Positions 6,982 to 11,516 of a stretch of DNA of 64,000 nucleotides are shown one piece after another. Source of the stretch: Escherichia phage JEP8. The stretch lies in the sequence record MT764208.1; one strand, 5' to 3'. The translations under genes and the position numbers were made by a program. How positions within the stretch are numbered: the stretch's first letter is position 1; every line of letters begins with the position of its first letter. The notes under the pieces were generated by a model. That model saw nothing but the letters and a program-made list of their open reading frames with translations. It was not told where the DNA came from and searched no databases.

Positions 6982-8451
6982 CTATTCCCCATTACCATTA
7001 TACTTTCTTTGCTTAGTTATCCACACTCTAACCATCTCTACTGATTCACCGTCAGACGGATCAAGAGTTTTTCCTTTTTTCTTCATGCGATACTTAAATC
7101 CGTTAAATCTTGCATTCTCTTGCTCGTTAAAGTCGAACATCTTTTTAAATGATTTTCTCCCTTTACGCTCACCACATTCTAGCGGAATCATTCGGTCTGT
7201 TATTACATTGGCATTAGGTAGAAACGTTTTTAGATAATCCACCAACGCCCAATCAGGAACATATAGATTAACATTCTCCTTGCTCTCGTTGTCTCTCAGG
7301 TTACAACGCAAACATAATTGAAATGCTGGTTCCAGATAATCAGACACATGACGCGCTTTCAAAAACTCGTTTGTCGGGAGATCACAACTATTAGCAAGAC
7401 CTTTTAAAATATCAATCTCCCATCGTTGAGGGTTAAAGCTGAACATCACAGCAACATTTTTATGATGAATGTAAGAGTTAAGACCATAAGATCCGTAAGG
7501 TATCCGCTCACCAATACCATTTGTGCACGCTTCACGGTCCCGATTCACGGTATAAATGAAGTCATCGCCACATTCATTTTTAACCATATCAACAAGACGT
7601 TCAAAGGTATTGTTTGTTTCTGACTGGTGACGCGACCAGCGTTCGGAGTCAGTCATAAGGATGATGTTAACTCTATCTGTATTTTTATACTCTTTGAAAT
7701 ATAGTCTGGATTCTAGCGCACTCGGAACAAAATCGCAATTTGCATAGTATCGTAGATACTTCCCACTATATGTATCAAAGAGATTTGCACATGCTATCGT
7801 AACCTTTTTAAAGTCTCCCCACGTACCGTGTTTGTTATCGTTCAAGAAAACAATTTTCGACCCATTCTTCCGGTGTCCTTCGTTATGTTTTACCATAACG
7901 TTGATTTTCTTCTCTAATAACGCCTCATAAAGCCCTCTAAGAGAAGAATCGATCATATCAGTACCATCCTTTGCACTTTCTATCTTTTCTTTGATAGCGG
8001 CCTTCTCAGAGTCTTTTAGAACTAAGTTCTGTAGGCATTCCGATTCGTCGGCGATTGGTTCGCAATGCTTCGTGATAAGTTCAAGATTAGACTTAAACGG
8101 ATACTCATTAAATTCAACCAGTTGAGGAACTTCATCAATGTAAAGAGCATATTCACCAAACATTTTTGAACGTTCCATATTAGATAACGCTGTATGTGTA
8201 ATGAATATCACATCAGCACCGTCTTTAACTGATTGCATTATCGACGCTTGCACTGTCTTAAGGCTTCTTAGTCTTGTGCTATCGATCAAGACAGCACGAC
8301 CGCCCATTCTTTTAAACTTATTGTAAGATTGTTCACTTAAAACACGAGATGGCGAAGCAATAACCGCTTTTTCTTTTGTCTCTAGGACGTGGGAAAGTAT
8401 AGCATCAGTTTTCCCCGCCGCTGGCAATGCGATTAATGTTTCAATCTTCAT
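6982..8451 (-). CDS. P-loop NTPase of unknown function (helicase-like N-terminal motifs)
   Basis: 489 aa; Walker A-like ALPAAGKT, then IASPSR, Walker B-like ALYIDEV. Occupies the position immediately upstream of gene 55; no alpha-glucosyltransferase-like gene present. Confidence 0.6.
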   Translation of the reverse strand: MKIETLIALPAAGKTDAILSHVLETKEKAVIASPSRVLSEQSYNKFKRMGGRAVLIDSTRLRSLKTVQASIMQSVKDGADVIFITHTALSNMERSKMFGEYALYIDEVPQLVEFNEYPFKSNLELITKHCEPIADESECLQNLVLKDSEKAAIKEKIESAKDGTDMIDSSLRGLYEALLEKKINVMVKHNEGHRKNGSKIVFLNDNKHGTWGDFKKVTIACANLFDTYSGKYLRYYANCDFVPSALESRLYFKEYKNTDRVNIILMTDSERWSRHQSETNNTFERLVDMVKNECGDDFIYTVNRDREACTNGIGERIPYGSYGLNSYIHHKNVAVMFSFNPQRWEIDILKGLANSCDLPTNEFLKARHVSDYLEPAFQLCLRCNLRDNESKENVNLYVPDWALVDYLKTFLPNANVITDRMIPLECGERKGRKSFKKMFDFNEQENARFNGFKYRMKKKGKTLDPSDGESVEMVRVWITKQRKYNGNGE

Positions 8452-8738
8452 TAGAAACCCTTACGTCGTGCTTTCTGGCATTTCTTGATCATTTTATCAG
8501 AAATTTCGCGCTTAGGTGCAAGCTCTTTCACACCGAAAGCACTAATGCCAAATTCAGAGAGAATATATTCAACCAACAATTCACGCACACGCGCTTTACC
8601 GATATTCACGCCGTTATTTTTCAGATATGTCTGGCCTTCGACTTGCATCAGATCTAAATCAGCGTCGGTAATATTGATTTCTTCCATGCGCCCAAATCGA
8701 GAGTAAACCATGTGTGCGATTGCATTGTGTACTAACAT
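8451..8738 (-). CDS. Hypothetical protein
   Basis: ORF track 8451-8756 starts at TTG; moved to ATG after SD GAGGAA (MLVHNAIAHM...). Confidence 0.45.
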   Translation of the reverse strand: MLVHNAIAHMVYSRFGRMEEINITDADLDLMQVEGQTYLKNNGVNIGKARVRELLVEYILSEFGISAFGVKELAPKREISDKMIKKCQKARRKGF

Positions 8739-8759
8739 AATATATTCCTCACTCAAGAA

Positions 8760-8867
8760 TTACTTAATGATACTTACTTTACCAGATCCATGACAATGAG
8801 CGCAACACCCATCACCACGTAATCCTGTTCCGTTACAGTGTTTACACTTCTTCAACGGTAAAGTCAT
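8760..8867 (-). CDS. Mini-protein with two DnaJ-type CxxCxGxG zinc-finger repeats (35 aa)
   Basis: Below ORF-track cutoff. Translation MTLPLKKCKHCNGTGLRGDGCCAHCHGSGKVSIIK; repeats CKHCNGTG and CAHCHGSG. No clear SD. Confidence 0.35.
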   Translation of the reverse strand: MTLPLKKCKHCNGTGLRGDGCCAHCHGSGKVSIIK

Positions 8868-8907
8868 TATAGCAAATAAAGCAATAATGAACACCGAAAC
8901 TAAATTC

Positions 8908-9177
8908 TCAATAATCATAAATCGCCCTCAGTTCTTTATAGCCTCCAATGTGCTCGTTGTCAATGAATATCTGGGGGTATACAAACCGGAGGCTCTTTGA
9001 GTTCAGCCTCCCCGCCAGTTCTTCAATCATATCACGGTCGGGAATAATGTCAACCCCGACCTGCTTGAATACTGGTTTAAGTGTATACGGAATACCCAGA
9101 TCATCCAGTAGCTTCATTGCACTAATACAACCATAACAATGATAAGCCTCTTTAGGTATACCGTATATCTCGATCAT
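8908..9177 (-). CDS. nrdH: Glutaredoxin-like protein (NrdH-like)
   Basis: 89 aa; CxxC active site (CYGC) near N-terminus; located next to the nrdG/nrdD cluster. Confidence 0.7.
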   Translation of the reverse strand: MIEIYGIPKEAYHCYGCISAMKLLDDLGIPYTLKPVFKQVGVDIIPDRDMIEELAGRLNSKSLRFVYPQIFIDNEHIGGYKELRAIYDY

Positions 9178-9650
9178 TTCTCAGCCTTTAATCTTTCTAG
9201 TTCTTCTTCCAGTTCCTTGATCCGTTGGTCACGTTCAAAGTCACGCTGTAACTTAGTGGCGAATACTCGTTTAAACTGATTGTAATCATCGATTTTAAAC
9301 ACTTCTTCTTCGCCATAGCGACGCACAGAAACTTCGTAGTTATTGAAGAATTGTTGCATCATTGCTTCGGATGATAGTTCTGCTGATACTACTTTAAAAT
9401 ATTGATCTTCGGTAGGTGAAAACCAATTACAAGCATAAAGATAAACCTTTTCATTGTCTGGACACTGATAAGCCTTACCATCGATTTCAATCACAGAAAC
9501 ATATTCAGGTATACTGGATGAATCAATAGCTAAGACTTTAAACGCACGGTCCCCGATAAACTCGGAGATCACACGATTCGCATCACTGGTTGCAAATGCT
9601 TTACGCGCTTGTTCGTTTTTCCACTGATAGGTCATACCAACAACAAACAT
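9174..9650 (-). CDS. Paralogous family member A (GKTY/DGK/ERK-F-F module)
   Basis: 158 aa; GMTYQW, IEIDGKAY, EDQYFKVV; charged C-terminal tail (ELEEELERLKAEK). Confidence 0.55.
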   Translation of the reverse strand: MFVVGMTYQWKNEQARKAFATSDANRVISEFIGDRAFKVLAIDSSSIPEYVSVIEIDGKAYQCPDNEKVYLYACNWFSPTEDQYFKVVSAELSSEAMMQQFFNNYEVSVRRYGEEEVFKIDDYNQFKRVFATKLQRDFERDQRIKELEEELERLKAEK

Positions 9651-9651
9651 A

Positions 9652-10476
9652 TTACCAACCTCGCTCTTTACCGATCAAAAATTCAACTTCACGACGTTTA
9701 ATATCTTCTTGAAGGTCTTTAATCTTCTGGCGATCTTGCATGATTTCGTCCATCTTGTCAAGTGCTGTAATGAAATCATCGAAACGTTCAAAGGTTTTAC
9801 CTTCATTTGCTTCGCCAAATTTAACCATTGTCAGGCCGTAACGACTACTAAACAGACGTTTCAACTGTCCAACGATCTTAGAATCAGTAGTGACGACTTC
9901 CAATTCTTCTACTTCTTGAAAGAATTTTCTATCAGAATCAATAAACCAGCTAATTCCTTTATGGTCTTTATCTTCGGTTGCACTCATTAGAGTATGGTCT
10001 TTACCATCAATTTCAATTACATCAATTTGCCCACATGGACTAACCTTTTTAACAGTAAAAGGTCTATAATTTATTGCTCGTGCAATAACATAATTAAGGT
10101 TTGATACGTTTTCAGCATAATGGCAGAAGTCGGTCATAGCATTCGCATCTTTCCAAGTATAAGTTTTACCAACTTCCCATTTCTGGGGAACTTCTTCGAC
10201 TTCACGAAAGAATTTTCTATCGAATGGACTAAAGAAATATGTTGCAGTCCAAATGTCTTTTCCTGTAGCAGTTTTCGCCGTATGATAAACACCGTCTAGC
10301 TCTATTGCATCAATCCAACCGTTACCCTCGATCTCGATGATGGTAAATGGCTTGTCACCAATAGCTGCACTAATATCGCTGTTAAGTGGAGAAAGAACAC
10401 CTTCTCCGTTAGTAATAAACTCAGTTTTAGCGTTTTCGTCTTTCCAAGTGTAAGTTTTACCAATTTCCCATTTCAT
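9652..10476 (-). CDS. Paralogous family member B (two tandem modules)
   Basis: 274 aa; MKWEIGKTYTWKD...IELDGVYH...DRKFFREV then KWEVGKTYTWKD...IEIDGKDH...DRKFFQEV. Confidence 0.6.
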   Translation of the reverse strand: MKWEIGKTYTWKDENAKTEFITNGEGVLSPLNSDISAAIGDKPFTIIEIEGNGWIDAIELDGVYHTAKTATGKDIWTATYFFSPFDRKFFREVEEVPQKWEVGKTYTWKDANAMTDFCHYAENVSNLNYVIARAINYRPFTVKKVSPCGQIDVIEIDGKDHTLMSATEDKDHKGISWFIDSDRKFFQEVEELEVVTTDSKIVGQLKRLFSSRYGLTMVKFGEANEGKTFERFDDFITALDKMDEIMQDRQKIKDLQEDIKRREVEFLIGKERGW

Positions 10477-10488
10477 AATATATTCCCC

Positions 10489-10974
10489 TTAACCGATTTT
10501 ATCAAGTTCGTTTAATGCTTTCTCTGCTTCCTGTATAGCTTGCACTCTTTCCGGCATTTTGTCAAGAAAATCTTTCAACTCTTCAAAACTGGAGATATGA
10601 CGCAAGGCATTAGCACCGATAGCCGCATGTGATTTGCATTCAAAGCGGATTTTATAATTATCCATAGCCAATTTGAGAAGATCAATTAGATCATGTTCAT
10701 GACCAGGCAATAAAACTTCTTTGAAGCACGCTCGGTCGTCATCGGAAAACCATATATTATCACCAACATCGATAGAACTAATATAATCCCCTTCGTGATT
10801 ATAGATTGAACGTACATTACCCCAACGGTCTACCGTAGCGACAGTAAATGGTTTATCTAGATATGTAAACACACCATCAATATTAGGTTTTTGTTCGTAA
10901 CGCCAACAATCACGCAAAATACGCTTTTCGTCCTCACCAACCAACTTATATGTCTTCCCTTCTTCCCATTTCAT
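10489..10974 (-). CDS. Paralogous family member C
   Basis: Start moved to MKWEEGKTYKL (SD GAGAGATGA); DRACFKEV motif; coiled-coil tail. Confidence 0.6.
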   Translation of the reverse strand: MKWEEGKTYKLVGEDEKRILRDCWRYEQKPNIDGVFTYLDKPFTVATVDRWGNVRSIYNHEGDYISSIDVGDNIWFSDDDRACFKEVLLPGHEHDLIDLLKLAMDNYKIRFECKSHAAIGANALRHISSFEELKDFLDKMPERVQAIQEAEKALNELDKIG

Positions 10975-10978
10975 AATA

Positions 10979-11506
10979 TCATCTCTCATTTTTGATACGT
11001 GATTCTAATTGGATCATACGGTCGCGCGTTTGCTTATATTCGCGGATAGCACCGATTCGGCTAGGCATACCATCCAGTACGCTCTTAATACCTTCTAGGG
11101 TAGTGATTTTAGCAATGCTATTATGCAATCCTGTCTTATCGATCAACTGAATGTCGTAGGCTTCCATAAGCAGACCCAGACGTTCTAAAGTTAGGTCTTC
11201 TTCTTTTTCTTCCGATTCTGGAATCTTAGGTTCAATAGTAACTTCGGTAAAGAAACGACGCTCACCAGCCCAAAACCACACACCGGAACAGCCAATAGGG
11301 GATTCTTTTAACGTCATAGAGTCGAAATCACTACCAATAATAGTAATTTCTCTAACATCACCATCATCGTCAATGTCTTCTACCATAAACGGGCGACCAG
11401 CCAACAAGTCCACAATACATCTGTTAATAGACGACGAAAATTTAGTCAGTTCGGCTTTCGACGCTTCGCATTCAATCTTGTAAGTTTTACCAACTTCCCA
11501 TTCCAT
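10979..11506 (-). CDS. Paralogous family member D
   Basis: Start moved to MEWEVGKTYKI (SD GAGGTGA); ERRFFTEV motif; charged tail. Confidence 0.6.
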   Translation of the reverse strand: MEWEVGKTYKIECEASKAELTKFSSSINRCIVDLLAGRPFMVEDIDDDGDVREITIIGSDFDSMTLKESPIGCSGVWFWAGERRFFTEVTIEPKIPESEEKEEDLTLERLGLLMEAYDIQLIDKTGLHNSIAKITTLEGIKSVLDGMPSRIGAIREYKQTRDRMIQLESRIKNER

Positions 11507-11516
11507 AATAATCACC

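What the first reader, a model, noticed from the sequence alone, without database searches (positions are those of the whole stretch)
8760..8867. Unannotated 35-aa DnaJ-type zinc-finger mini-ORF
Two CxxCxGxG repeats (CKHCNGTG, CAHCHGSG) in 35 residues are unlikely by chance in an AT-rich genome; the ORF fills the gap between nrdH and the next gene.
Basis: seen in the sequence. Interest (0 to 1): 0.35.

Follow-up and report, generated by a model that had tools for sequence, protein, structure and literature searches.

The report
Membrane-anchored zinc-finger mini-protein of RB49-like phage
The flagged stretch is a real, conserved phage gene, but it is 52 codons long rather than 35, it is already annotated as a hypothetical protein in phage RB49 and its relatives, and it encodes a membrane anchor plus one DnaJ/anti-TRAP-type zinc knuckle whose function has never been tested.

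Summary
The two CxxCxGxG motifs are real and far beyond chance. About 0.23 single motifs are expected per 64 kb in six frames, and no pair appeared in 300 simulations.

The gene model and the "unannotated" label are wrong.
- The ORF runs 8760..8918 on the minus strand and encodes 52 aa.
- It starts at an ATG preceded by a conserved GAGGG Shine-Dalgarno and overlaps the glutaredoxin stop by 11 nt.
- The extra 17 residues belong to a strongly hydrophobic N-terminal helix.
- The window is a Krischvirus (98.9% identical to RB49). The ORF is RB49p046 / UniProt Q7Y3T0, intact in all 58 Krischvirus records, and called "putative membrane protein" in phage W115.

Full-length homologues (PHROG 3931) occur in Felix-O1-like phages, where they sit directly upstream of rIIA-rIIB.

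Only the Cys/Gly scaffold is invariant. The rest evolves much faster than the flanking genes (48% identity where the neighbours are 94-98% identical), yet it is under purifying selection (omega 0.16-0.42).

The AlphaFold2 model (pLDDT 77) superposes on anti-TRAP at 0.8 Å over 29 residues.

Best reading: an early-expressed protein tethered to the inner membrane, with its single-zinc knuckle facing the cytoplasm and acting as a protein-binding module. The target is unknown. This is a modestly interesting new member of a known kind.

The parts
8760..8918 (-). CDS of 52 aa plus stop: MIIENLVSVFIIALFAIMTLPLKKCKHCNGTGLRGDGCCAHCHGSGKVSIIK. It is the orthologue of RB49p046 / UniProt Q7Y3T0 and a member of PHROG 3931.
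   Evidence: ORF list. Identical CDS annotated in RB49, W115, Skers and FL37. Intact in 58 of 58 Krischvirus records. Omega 0.16-0.42 against relatives. phrog_3931 E=4.4e-10.
8925..8929 (-). Shine-Dalgarno GAGGG, 6 nt before ATG 8918. It lies inside the 3' end of the glutaredoxin gene.
   Evidence: Sequence. The same GAGGG/GGAGAG element and ATG are present in L030, L032, L035, L036 and L037.
8908..8918 (-). 11-nt overlap between the start of the mini-gene and the end of the glutaredoxin gene, which could allow translational coupling.
   Evidence: Coordinates. An overlap of 8-11 nt is kept in divergent relatives.
8853..8915 (-). Codons 2-22: the N-terminal hydrophobic (transmembrane) helix.
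   Evidence: Kyte-Doolittle mean 2.65 over residues 6-22, and 2.1-3.2 in all 18 homologues examined. AlphaFold2 helix at residues 2-19. In-frame 3-codon indels in relatives.
8865..8867 (-). It is not the start.
   Evidence: No Shine-Dalgarno upstream. The Met is not conserved in L035, L036 or L037.
8823..8846 (-). Zinc-knuckle repeat 1, CKHCNGTG (Cys25, Cys28, Gly30, Gly32).
   Evidence: These columns are invariant in 19 homologues.
8781..8804 (-). Zinc-knuckle repeat 2, CAHCHGSG (Cys39, Cys42, Gly44, Gly46). It is preceded by a six-residue linker and a fifth cysteine (Cys38).
   Evidence: Invariant columns. Linker length is 6 in 16 of 18 homologues.
9026..9053 (-). Near-consensus sigma-70-type promoter (TTGACA-16-TGnTATGAT, 11 of 12 matches) inside the glutaredoxin gene, 108 nt upstream of the mini-gene start. 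This is the inferred early promoter for the mini-gene and the genes downstream.
   Evidence: Promoter-like sites at the equivalent place in divergent relatives: L036 TTGACT-16-TACAAT with TG, 108 nt upstream; L037 TTGACA-17-TATAAT, 12 of 12, 122 nt upstream. Consensus scans only; function is not shown.
8908..9177 (-). Upstream neighbour: glutaredoxin-like protein of 89 aa with a CYGC active site (annotated nrdH in RB49).
   Evidence: Pfam Glutaredoxin 23.4 bits against a cut-off of 22.9. RB49 annotation.
8451..8738 (-). Downstream neighbour: gp55.2 orthologue (DUF7570, 95 aa). The T4 protein is an early-expressed inhibitor of host topoisomerase I.
   Evidence: Pfam DUF7570 E=1.3e-28. RB49 annotation. 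PMC4396842.

Best explanation
Window 8760..8918 (-) is a genuine phage gene encoding a 52-residue bitopic inner-membrane protein.

Anatomy: residues about 2-22 form a single transmembrane helix. The acidic five-residue N-terminus faces the periplasm. The basic C-terminal 30 residues (net +5) face the cytoplasm. There, Cys25, Cys28, Cys39 and Cys42 hold one zinc ion in a DnaJ/anti-TRAP-type double knuckle.

Expression: the gene is probably transcribed early or middle in infection, in two ways. One is by read-through together with the glutaredoxin gene it overlaps. The other is from a conserved sigma-70-type promoter that lies inside that gene.

Proposed mechanism (inferred): the zinc knuckle is a small protein-binding surface held at the membrane. 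It captures, sequesters or modulates a host or phage protein there. This resembles anti-TRAP blocking TRAP, the DnaJ zinc centres gripping clients or DnaK, and the plant protein FIP (same architecture) binding the membrane protease FtsH.

The invariant Cys/Gly scaffold combined with rapidly changing surface residues fits an interface that tracks a variable partner.

Shown: the coding status, the start codon, the conservation, the hydrophobic helix, the knuckle fold prediction and the synteny. Inferred: zinc binding, topology, timing, and the existence and identity of a binding partner.
For: Coding and start:
- Omega is 0.16-0.23 against the nearer relatives; in the zinc-finger half pN/pS is about 0.02/0.28 and 0.08/0.58.
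- The gene is intact in 58 of 58 Krischvirus genomes.
- The ATG and GAGGG are conserved, while Met18 is not.

Membrane helix:
- Kyte-Doolittle mean is 2.1-3.2 over 17 residues in all 18 homologues.
- The N-terminal flank is neutral or acidic in 17 of 18 homologues (P0079 is +3); in the window protein the C side carries +5.
- AlphaFold2 places a helix at residues 2-19.
- W115 and several Felixounavirus records annotate it as a membrane protein.

Zinc knuckle:
- The eight Cys/Gly scaffold columns are the only invariant ones in 19 homologues.
- The profile hits the DnaJ cysteine-rich domain 1exk at E=1e-8.
- Foldseek's top PDB hits are anti-TRAP 3ld0 (rmsd 0.8 Å over 29 residues, probability 1.0), then DnaJA2 and the DnaJ cysteine-rich domain.
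- By sequence inspection, the Cys-to-Cys spacing equals that of anti-TRAP and of adjacent DnaJ repeats.

Early expression:
- There is no T4-type late promoter TATAAATA within 18 kb.
- Near-consensus sigma-70-type promoters sit 108-122 nt upstream in three diverged lineages.
- The downstream gene 55.2 is an early transcript in T4 and a host-takeover factor (PMC4396842).

Fast-evolving interface:
- In L035 the mini-protein is 48% identical while glutaredoxin is 94% and gp55.2 is 98% identical.
- dN is 0.39 against 0.01-0.03 in the flanks.

Precedent for the architecture: plant FIP has a short lumenal N-terminus, a transmembrane segment and two CXXCXGXG repeats on the stromal side, and it binds FtsH5 (PMC5915565).
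Against: - No experiment exists for this protein or any full-length homologue. Literature searches found only its listing as a novel ORF.
- The positive-inside signal is clear in the Krischvirus clade but weak or reversed in some Felix-O1-like homologues, where the C-terminal net charge is -2 to -3. The topology is therefore not secure family-wide.
- All Foldseek PDB E-values are above 0.05 because the domain is tiny.
- Part of the high divergence reflects mosaic recombination rather than selection. dS is also raised (0.55-0.92 against 0.1-0.4 in the flanks), and neighbouring genes show very different dS values.
- The promoter calls are consensus matches only; 27 were found against 21 expected in 7 kb.
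- No binding partner is identified.
Confidence: 0.45

Rival explanations
1. Redox partner of the adjacent glutaredoxin. The CxxC pairs act as a thiol-disulfide or zinc-release redox switch that is reduced by, or docks, the translationally coupled glutaredoxin at the membrane. DnaJ, and the plant DnaJ-like zinc-finger proteins (my own knowledge), have oxidoreductase activity. Eukaryotic GRXCR1/2 fuse a glutaredoxin domain to a CxxCxGxG domain.
For: - The 8-11 nt overlap with an 89-91 aa glutaredoxin gene is kept in every Krischvirus-like lineage examined, down to 57% glutaredoxin identity.
- The top (sub-threshold) Pfam hit is GRXCR1-2_C, E=0.0036.
- DnaJ oxidoreductase activity is documented (abstract of PMC8262869, listed).
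Against: - The GRXCR hit covers only 12 residues, i.e. one generic motif, and scores 17.6 bits against a cut-off of 26.
- Felix-O1-like and related homologues have no glutaredoxin neighbour. Their upstream genes give no thioredoxin-fold hit.
- A conserved promoter inside the glutaredoxin gene would produce transcripts that carry the mini-gene without an intact glutaredoxin gene.
- The synteny may simply be inherited gene order.
Confidence: 0.15
2. The membrane helix is the effector. The protein acts within the inner membrane, for example in superinfection exclusion, membrane integrity or lysis timing together with rII-type proteins. The zinc knuckle serves only as a cytoplasmic cap that fixes topology or drives oligomerisation.
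For: - In four Ounavirinae-type contexts with sequence downstream of the gene, it sits immediately upstream of rIIA-rIIB, which are membrane-associated proteins.
- An acidic residue near the start of the helix recurs (IE motif: MIIEN, WIEIL, WLELI, NIEAV).
- Some Felixounavirus records encode frame-shifted versions that keep only the helix.
Against: - The helix sequence is the least conserved part and tolerates 3-residue indels, whereas the knuckle scaffold is invariant.
- The frame-shifted versions are rare; each such cluster has a single member sequence.
- Krischviruses do not place the gene near rII.
Confidence: 0.2
3. Chaperone mimic. The knuckle imitates a zinc centre of host DnaJ and recruits or blocks DnaK/DnaJ at the membrane, as automatic annotations such as "chaperone protein DnaJ" or "heat shock protein" imply.
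For: - The best sequence match among solved structures is the E. coli DnaJ cysteine-rich domain, E=1e-8.
- Homologues are auto-annotated as dnaJ or heat shock protein.
Against: - There is no J domain, no G/F region and no C-terminal client-binding domains.
- Only two of the four repeats are present.
- It scores below every DnaJ family cut-off (14.6 vs 32.7 bits in Pfam; 18.6 vs 377 bits in TIGR02349).
- The annotations are motif-driven, not tested.
Confidence: 0.1
4. One reading: a 35-residue soluble zinc-finger peptide translated from ATG 8867.
For: An in-frame ATG exists at 8867.
Against: - There is no Shine-Dalgarno before it.
- Met18 is Leu or Cys in L035, L036 and L037.
- The 17 upstream codons stay open, hydrophobic and in frame across indels.
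- Every public annotation uses the 159-nt CDS.
Confidence: 0.04
5. A spurious ORF or chance motif with no product.
For: The ORF is very short, and there is no proteomic or functional evidence for it.
Against: - Chance expectation for the motif pair is about zero.
- Purifying selection acts on it.
- Full-length homologues occur in an unrelated phage subfamily.
- No Rfam family matches in the window, so no alternative RNA explanation is available.
Confidence: 0.02

Closest known systems
Anti-TRAP (RtpA/YczA) of Bacillus, PDB 2bx9, 3lcz, 3ld0
   Same: Size is about the same (52-53 aa). One Zn(Cys)4 site is built from two adjacent CxxC(xGxG) knuckles with the same Cys-to-Cys spacing. It is the best structural match (rmsd 0.7-0.8 Å over 26-29 residues). 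It works purely by binding and blocking another protein.
   Different: Anti-TRAP is soluble and oligomerises through a C-terminal helix. The phage protein instead has an N-terminal transmembrane helix and only a six-residue tail. It scores far below the RtpA family cut-off (13.4 vs 65 bits). From my own knowledge, E. coli has no TRAP.
Cysteine-rich (zinc-finger) domain of DnaJ/Hsp40, Pfam PF00684, PDB 1exk
   Same: It shares the CxxCxGxG repeat signature. The family profile hits 1exk at E=1e-8, and both halves of the DnaJ domain align without gaps inside the knuckles.
   Different: It has two repeats and one zinc instead of four repeats and two zincs. It lacks the J domain, the G/F region and the C-terminal domains. 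It is below the Pfam and NCBIfam cut-offs. It is membrane-anchored.
Plant thylakoid DnaJ-like zinc-finger proteins, especially FIP (At5g02160); also LQY1, CYO1/SCO2 and HCF222
   Same: FIP's mature architecture is the same: a short N-terminus on the far side of the membrane, one transmembrane segment, and two CXXCXGXG repeats on the stromal side, which is equivalent to the cytoplasm. It has no J domain and binds a membrane AAA protease, FtsH5 (PMC5915565).
   Different: These are eukaryotic, larger, and carry a transit peptide. Common ancestry was not tested here. This is a functional analogy only.
PHROG 3931 / Felixounavirus and Kolesnikvirus "membrane protein" upstream of rIIA (e.g. mio_30, phiEa21-4 gp117)
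   Same: These are true full-length homologues of 52-60 aa with the same helix-plus-two-knuckle plan and six-residue linker. Identity is 30-45% and phrog_3931 scores E=4.4e-10.
   Different: The genomic context differs (NAMPT ... mini-gene, rIIA, rIIB, with no glutaredoxin). The C-terminal charge is often negative. Function is equally unknown.

Membership tests
DnaJ central cysteine-rich domain (Pfam PF00684, DnaJ_CXXCXGXG) | CxxCxGxG repeats | tested here: met
   Two exact repeats, CKHCNGTG and CAHCHGSG. The Cys/Gly columns are invariant in 19 homologues.
DnaJ central cysteine-rich domain (Pfam PF00684, DnaJ_CXXCXGXG) | Score at or above Pfam's gathering threshold | tested here: not met
   14.6 bits against a cut-off of 32.7, E=0.042.
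DnaJ central cysteine-rich domain (Pfam PF00684, DnaJ_CXXCXGXG) | Four repeats forming two interleaved zinc centres | tested here: not met
   Only two repeats and five cysteines in the whole protein.
DnaJ/Hsp40 chaperone (TIGR02349) | J domain with HPD motif, G/F region and C-terminal client-binding domains | tested here: not met
   The protein has 52 residues and no such regions. TIGR02349 scores 18.6 bits against a cut-off of 377.
Anti-TRAP (NCBIfam NF058604 RtpA; Pfam PF15777) | Family-model score above the cut-off | tested here: not met
   NF058604 scores 13.4 bits against 65. PF15777 is not among the Pfam hits at E<=1.
Anti-TRAP (NCBIfam NF058604 RtpA; Pfam PF15777) | Single Zn(Cys)4 double-knuckle fold | tested here: inconclusive
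   The AlphaFold2 model (pLDDT 76-85 in the knuckle region) superposes on 3ld0 at 0.8 Å over 29 residues with probability 1.0, but E=0.07. Zinc binding itself cannot be tested here.
Anti-TRAP (NCBIfam NF058604 RtpA; Pfam PF15777) | Soluble, with a C-terminal helix that drives trimer/dodecamer assembly | tested here: not met
   There is no C-terminal helix. The helix is N-terminal and hydrophobic.
PHROG 3931 (phage family of unknown function) | Significant full-length match to the family profile | tested here: met
   E=4.4e-10; residues 9-48 match profile positions 16-56 of 59. Homologues P0080, P0083, P0090 and P0140 match the same family.
Single-pass membrane protein, N-out / C-in | One hydrophobic segment long enough to span the membrane, with positive charges on the cytoplasmic side | tested here: met
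   Kyte-Doolittle mean 2.65 over residues 6-22. The N flank MIIEN has charge -1, KK follows the helix, and the C-terminal net charge is +5. There is no lipobox and no signal-peptidase AxA site (sequence inspection). Experimental topology cannot be tested here.
GRXCR1/2 C-terminal domain (Pfam PF23733) | Score above the gathering threshold and a match along the domain | tested here: not met
   17.6 bits against 26, with only residues 22-33 aligned.
Plant FIP-type membrane-anchored DnaJ-like zinc-finger proteins | Transmembrane anchor plus two CXXCXGXG repeats on the stromal/cytoplasmic side, with binding to FtsH | not testable with these tools
   The architecture matches the description in PMC5915565. 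Homology to FIP and any FtsH interaction were not tested.

The most novel reading that the evidence does not exclude
The mini-protein is a fast-evolving, membrane-tethered, anti-TRAP-like inhibitor made in the first minutes of infection. It would lock onto a specific host inner-membrane machine (FtsH protease is the candidate suggested by plant FIP) or onto a membrane-associated defence or abortive-infection sensor. That would define a widespread class of phage "zinc-knuckle on a leash" host-takeover or anti-defence factors, found in Krischviruses and, next to rIIA/B, in Felix-O1-like phages.
Probability: 0.15. Interest if true: 0.6.

Novelty: new member of a known kind. Interest (0 to 1): 0.3.

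Why it matters
As a genome-annotation finding it changes little.

Its value is as a candidate for experiment.
- It lies in the hyperplastic early region of T4-like phages, where the neighbouring small ORF 55.2 (and, from my own knowledge, 55.1) turned out to be a specific inhibitor of a host enzyme.
- It has a simple, testable architecture.
- It evolves quickly on an invariant zinc scaffold.
- It recurs beside rIIA/B in another phage subfamily.

If it binds a defined host membrane protein, it would add a compact natural inhibitor module and help annotate the small CxxCxGxG proteins that are common in phage genomes.

Tried and rejected
- **Glutaredoxin link outside Krischviruses.** I looked for a glutaredoxin or thioredoxin-fold neighbour in the Ounavirinae-type contexts and found none. 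The upstream 107-113 aa proteins give no Pfam hit, so the glutaredoxin link is clade-specific.
- **GRXCR1/2 "Rosetta stone".** The Pfam hit is one 12-residue motif below threshold, so it was rejected as evidence.
- **Word-indexed protein search.** With the single sequence it found only 3 near-identical proteins. A 4-sequence profile and the exhaustive profile search were needed. Most of the 396 hits at E<=0.001 are ordinary DnaJ proteins or multi-repeat proteins and say nothing about function.
- **IMG/VR locus scan.** It mostly returned unrelated proteins that share only the CKHCNGTG word: true DnaJ proteins, a 168-aa family and a metallopeptidase-like protein. I did not use them.
- **T4-type late promoter.** None lies near the gene.
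- **Structured RNA.** No Rfam family matches anywhere in the window.
- **Literature.** Searches for the locus tags, for phage CXXCXGXG proteins and for Felix O1 DnaJ/rIIA neighbours gave no functional study.
- **Type IV pilin-like N-terminus.** This was the weak "N-terminal methylation motif" hit of 2006 (E=0.43). I rejected it because no Gly precedes the helix within the ORF, the frame is closed three codons upstream of the ATG, and the hit merely reflects a hydrophobic helix with an early Glu.
- **Lipoprotein or cleavable signal peptide.** There is no lipobox, no AxA site and no basic N-region, so this was rejected on sequence.
Full report
**1. What is in the sequence**

Between 8760 and 8918 the minus strand carries an open reading frame of 52 codons plus stop: MIIENLVSVFIIALFAIMTLPLKKCKHCNGTGLRGDGCCAHCHGSGKVSIIK.

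The two CxxCxGxG motifs are exactly as described. They begin at 8846 and 8804.

They are not a chance event. The six-frame translation of the whole window holds three such motifs, two of them here. Second-order Markov simulations of the window give a mean of 0.23 motifs. None of 300 simulated windows had two motifs in one ORF.

**2. Which start codon**

- ATG 8918 is preceded by GAGGG (8925-8929) with a 6-nt spacer. ATG 8867 has nothing comparable.
- In every relative recovered, the upstream ATG and its Shine-Dalgarno are conserved.
- The Met18 position is Leu or Cys in the more divergent relatives L035, L036 and L037.
- The 5' part stays in frame across 3-codon insertions and deletions and remains hydrophobic.
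- The start overlaps the stop of the upstream glutaredoxin gene (8908..9177) by 11 nt.
- A 21-nt spacer with its own GAGGAA separates the stop from the gp55.2 orthologue (8451..8738).

The correct model is therefore 52 aa.

**3. Where the window comes from, and whether the ORF is unannotated**

The 1.4 kb around the ORF is 98-99% identical to Escherichia phage RB49 and to 57 other Krischvirus records (Straboviridae).

RB49 annotates exactly this 159-nt CDS as RB49p046 (NP_891617.1, hypothetical protein). W115 calls it "putative membrane protein". Skers and FL37 also annotate it.

It is UniProt Q7Y3T0. It appeared as RB49ORF046c in the 2006 comparison of T4-like genomes, with only a weak hit (E=0.43) to the "N-terminal methylation motif", which reflects the hydrophobic N-terminus (PMC1524935).

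tblastn finds it full-length in all 58 Krischvirus genomes. "Unannotated" is simply wrong with respect to public records.

**4. Is it a gene under selection?**

Among near-identical genomes the substitutions in the zinc-finger half are synonymous (Leu33, Arg34, Cys39, His43). The replacements (T19A, K24T) fall in the helix-finger junction.

Against more distant alleles from metagenomes (P0003/L030, P0018/L032, P0025/L035, P0067/L036, P0066/L037):
- Nei-Gojobori omega is 0.16, 0.23, 0.42 and 0.56 where dS is not saturated.
- The zinc-finger half is much more constrained than the helix, with pN/pS of 0.02/0.28 and 0.08/0.58 for the two nearest alleles.

No Rfam family matches anywhere in the window, and no substantial ORF lies on the opposite strand. 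It is a protein-coding gene.

**5. Anatomy of the product**

*Transmembrane helix.* Residues 6-22 have a Kyte-Doolittle mean of 2.65. The equivalent 17-residue segment scores 2.1-3.2 in all 18 full-length homologues examined. AlphaFold2 with a 19-sequence alignment gives mean pLDDT 77, a helix at residues 2-19, and then two short beta-hairpin knuckles. A shallower alignment gave the same picture at pLDDT 70.5.

*Topology.* The N-terminal flank (MIIEN) is acidic. Lys23 and Lys24 follow the helix, and the C-terminal part has net charge +5. By the positive-inside rule the zinc finger should face the cytoplasm, where a Zn(Cys)4 site is chemically plausible. By inspection there is no lipobox and no signal-peptidase site. 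This charge bias is not universal: some Felix-O1-like homologues have a net negative C-terminus.

*Zinc knuckle.* Only eight columns are invariant in the alignment of 19 homologues: Cys25, Cys28, Gly30, Gly32, Cys39, Cys42, Gly44 and Gly46. The linker between the repeats is six residues in 16 of 18 homologues. A fifth cysteine (Cys38, "GCC") is frequent but not invariant.

**6. Relatives and contexts**

The family is PHROG 3931, of unknown function (E=4.4e-10). An exhaustive profile search of 1.84 billion representatives gave 396 hits at E<=0.001.
- Most are DnaJ proteins and multi-repeat proteins that share only the motif.
- A set of 49-60 aa proteins matches along the full length: helix plus two knuckles.

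*Krischvirus-like lineages.* The order glutaredoxin, mini-gene (overlapping), 55.2 (DUF7570), DEAD-like helicase, gene 55 is kept throughout. This holds even where glutaredoxin is only 57-66% identical.

*Felixounavirus, Kolesnikvirus and related Ounavirinae-type phages.* The homologue is 30-45% identical. It is annotated variously as "membrane protein", "heat shock protein" or "dnaJ chaperone protein". In the contexts that include sequence downstream of the gene, it lies immediately upstream of rIIA-rIIB, after the NAMPT/PRPP-synthetase genes; in one further context it lies after NAPRTase at the very end of the record. There is no glutaredoxin there.

*T4 itself.* At the DNA level T4 shares only 55.2 in this interval.

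**7. A fast-evolving cassette**

Identity to the window protein, by gene:

| Relative | Glutaredoxin | gp55.2 | Mini-protein |
|---|---|---|---|
| L035 | 94% | 98% | 48% |
| L032 | 98% | 95% | 75% |

For the mini-gene, dN is 0.09-0.39 against 0.01-0.03 in the flanks. dS is also raised, at 0.55-0.92 against 0.11-0.43.

Neighbouring genes show wildly different dS values. For the helicase-like gene, dS is 0.08 against L035 but 1.9-2.9 against L030 and L032. The region is therefore mosaic, and part of the divergence is allelic replacement by recombination.

Even so, the excess of dN (10- to 30-fold) over the excess of dS (about 2- to 5-fold) points to weaker or diversifying constraint on everything except the zinc scaffold. 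With a 52-codon gene these numbers carry large sampling error.

**8. Expression signals**

No T4-type late promoter (TATAAATA) lies within 18 kb.

A near-consensus sigma-70-type promoter lies inside the glutaredoxin gene: TTGACA-16-TATGAT with an extended -10 TG, at 9053..9026 on the minus strand, 108 nt upstream of ATG 8918. Promoter-like sites occur at the equivalent position in two lineages whose glutaredoxin proteins are only 66% and 57% identical:
- L036: TTGACT-16-TACAAT with TG, 108 nt upstream.
- L037: TTGACA-17-TATAAT, 12 of 12 matches, 122 nt upstream.

In L036 the amino acids encoded across the -10 element differ (DMI against ATI), yet the hexamer keeps its TAnnAT form.

These are consensus scans, not proof. 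Still, the recurrence suggests a real early promoter that serves the mini-gene and the genes downstream.

T4 55.2, the orthologue of the next gene, is an early transcript. It encodes an inhibitor of host topoisomerase I (PMC4396842). From my own knowledge, the adjacent T4 ORF 55.1 also targets host functions.

**9. Comparison with known families**

*By sequence.*
- A family profile hits the solved E. coli DnaJ cysteine-rich domain (1exk) at E=1e-8. Both halves of that domain align, and anti-TRAP matches at E=0.18.
- The protein falls below the curated cut-off of every family model: Pfam DnaJ_CXXCXGXG 14.6 vs 32.7 bits, TIGR02349 18.6 vs 377 bits, and RtpA 13.4 vs 65 bits.

*By structure.* The best PDB matches are anti-TRAP from Bacillus licheniformis and B. 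subtilis (rmsd 0.7-1.0 Å over 26-29 residues, probability up to 1.0, E=0.07-0.9). DnaJA2 and DnaJ zinc domains follow. The viral structure library returns RB49 Q7Y3T0 itself, the Felix-O1-like and phiEa21-4 homologues, and many uncharacterised small phage "DnaJ-like" or "anti-TRAP domain" proteins.

*What it is and is not.* It is not a DnaJ: there is no J domain, and it has half the repeats. It is not an anti-TRAP family member: it has a membrane helix instead of the C-terminal oligomerisation helix, and it scores below the cut-off. It carries the same single-zinc double-knuckle module.

*Closest architectural analogue.* The closest I could find in the literature is plant FIP. FIP has a short N-terminus on the lumenal side, one transmembrane segment and two CXXCXGXG repeats on the stromal side. 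It has no J domain and binds the membrane protease FtsH5 (PMC5915565). This is an analogy, not tested homology.

**10. Mechanism**

*Shown.*
- The gene is real and codes for 52 residues.
- It is conserved.
- It has an N-terminal hydrophobic helix.
- It has a C-terminal scaffold typical of a Zn(Cys)4 double knuckle.
- It sits in an early-gene neighbourhood.
- Its surface residues evolve fast.

*Inferred.*
- It inserts N-out/C-in in the inner membrane and binds one zinc.
- It is made early.
- It uses the knuckle as a protein-binding surface to hold or block a partner at the membrane.

I put about 0.85 on the anatomy and about 0.45 on the whole statement including the mechanism. Rival readings, in order of weight:
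- membrane-effector role with rII-type functions (0.2);
- redox partner of the coupled glutaredoxin (0.15);
- DnaK/DnaJ mimicry (0.1);
- spurious ORF (0.02).

**11. Verdict**

The motif observation is right. The gene model and the "unannotated" label are wrong.

The gene is an already catalogued hypothetical protein of RB49-like phages. It belongs to a recognisable kind, the J-domain-less DnaJ/anti-TRAP-type zinc-knuckle mini-proteins, here with a membrane anchor. No function is known for it or for any full-length homologue.

It is a reasonable candidate for a host-takeover factor and is cheap to test, but nothing found here is very surprising. Interest 0.3; new member of a known kind.

Noticed in passing
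window 9026-9053 (-); L036 385-412 (+); L037 243-271 (+): A near-consensus sigma-70-type promoter lies inside the glutaredoxin coding sequence, 108-122 nt upstream of the mini-gene. It recurs at the equivalent place in lineages whose glutaredoxin proteins are only 57-66% identical. It is a possible conserved internal early promoter.
   Followed up: partly
Felixounavirus homologues: P0007, P0009, P0010, P0011 (e.g. phage phiWec177); compare L004 3986-4162: Some records encode 63-aa frame-shifted versions that keep the transmembrane helix but lose the zinc finger. The shift lies near the HKK (A-rich) codons. Each such cluster has a single member sequence, and intact genomes match the frame-shifted query in two pieces. 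Sequencing error versus real truncation is not resolved.
   Followed up: partly
window 9174-11515 (-): Four consecutive paralogous ORFs (158, 274, 166 and 178 aa) share an N-terminal W(E/K)xGKTYxW/K-type module; the 274-aa one carries it twice. The first gives weak PHROG hits to "goF mRNA metabolism modulator" families. This is a tandemly expanded gene family upstream of the glutaredoxin gene.
   Followed up: no
window 6982-8451 (-) compared with L030, L032 and L035: Sharp mosaicism. The DEAD-like helicase gene has dS 0.08 against L035 but 1.9-2.9 against L030 and L032, while the adjacent 55.2 and glutaredoxin genes have dS 0.1-0.4 against all three. Recombination breakpoints must lie within a few hundred bases of the mini-gene.
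   Followed up: partly
window 8739-8756 (-): The mechanical ORF list starts the gp55.2 orthologue at a TTG (8756, 101 aa). All public annotations use the ATG at 8738 (95 aa), which has a GAGGAA Shine-Dalgarno.
   Followed up: yes
window 8805-8807 (-), Cys38: A fifth cysteine directly before the second CxxC ("GCC") is kept in most Krischvirus-like and Felix-O1-like homologues. In others it is shifted (CVC, PCPCC). Its role is unknown; it could be an alternative ligand or a redox-active thiol.
   Followed up: no
window 6982-8451 (-): A 489-aa protein is conserved next to gene 55 in Krischviruses. It gives only a marginal DEAD/DEAH helicase Pfam hit (27.4 vs 26 bits) and belongs to PHROG 2467, of unknown function. 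W115 annotates it as "putative helicase".
   Followed up: no
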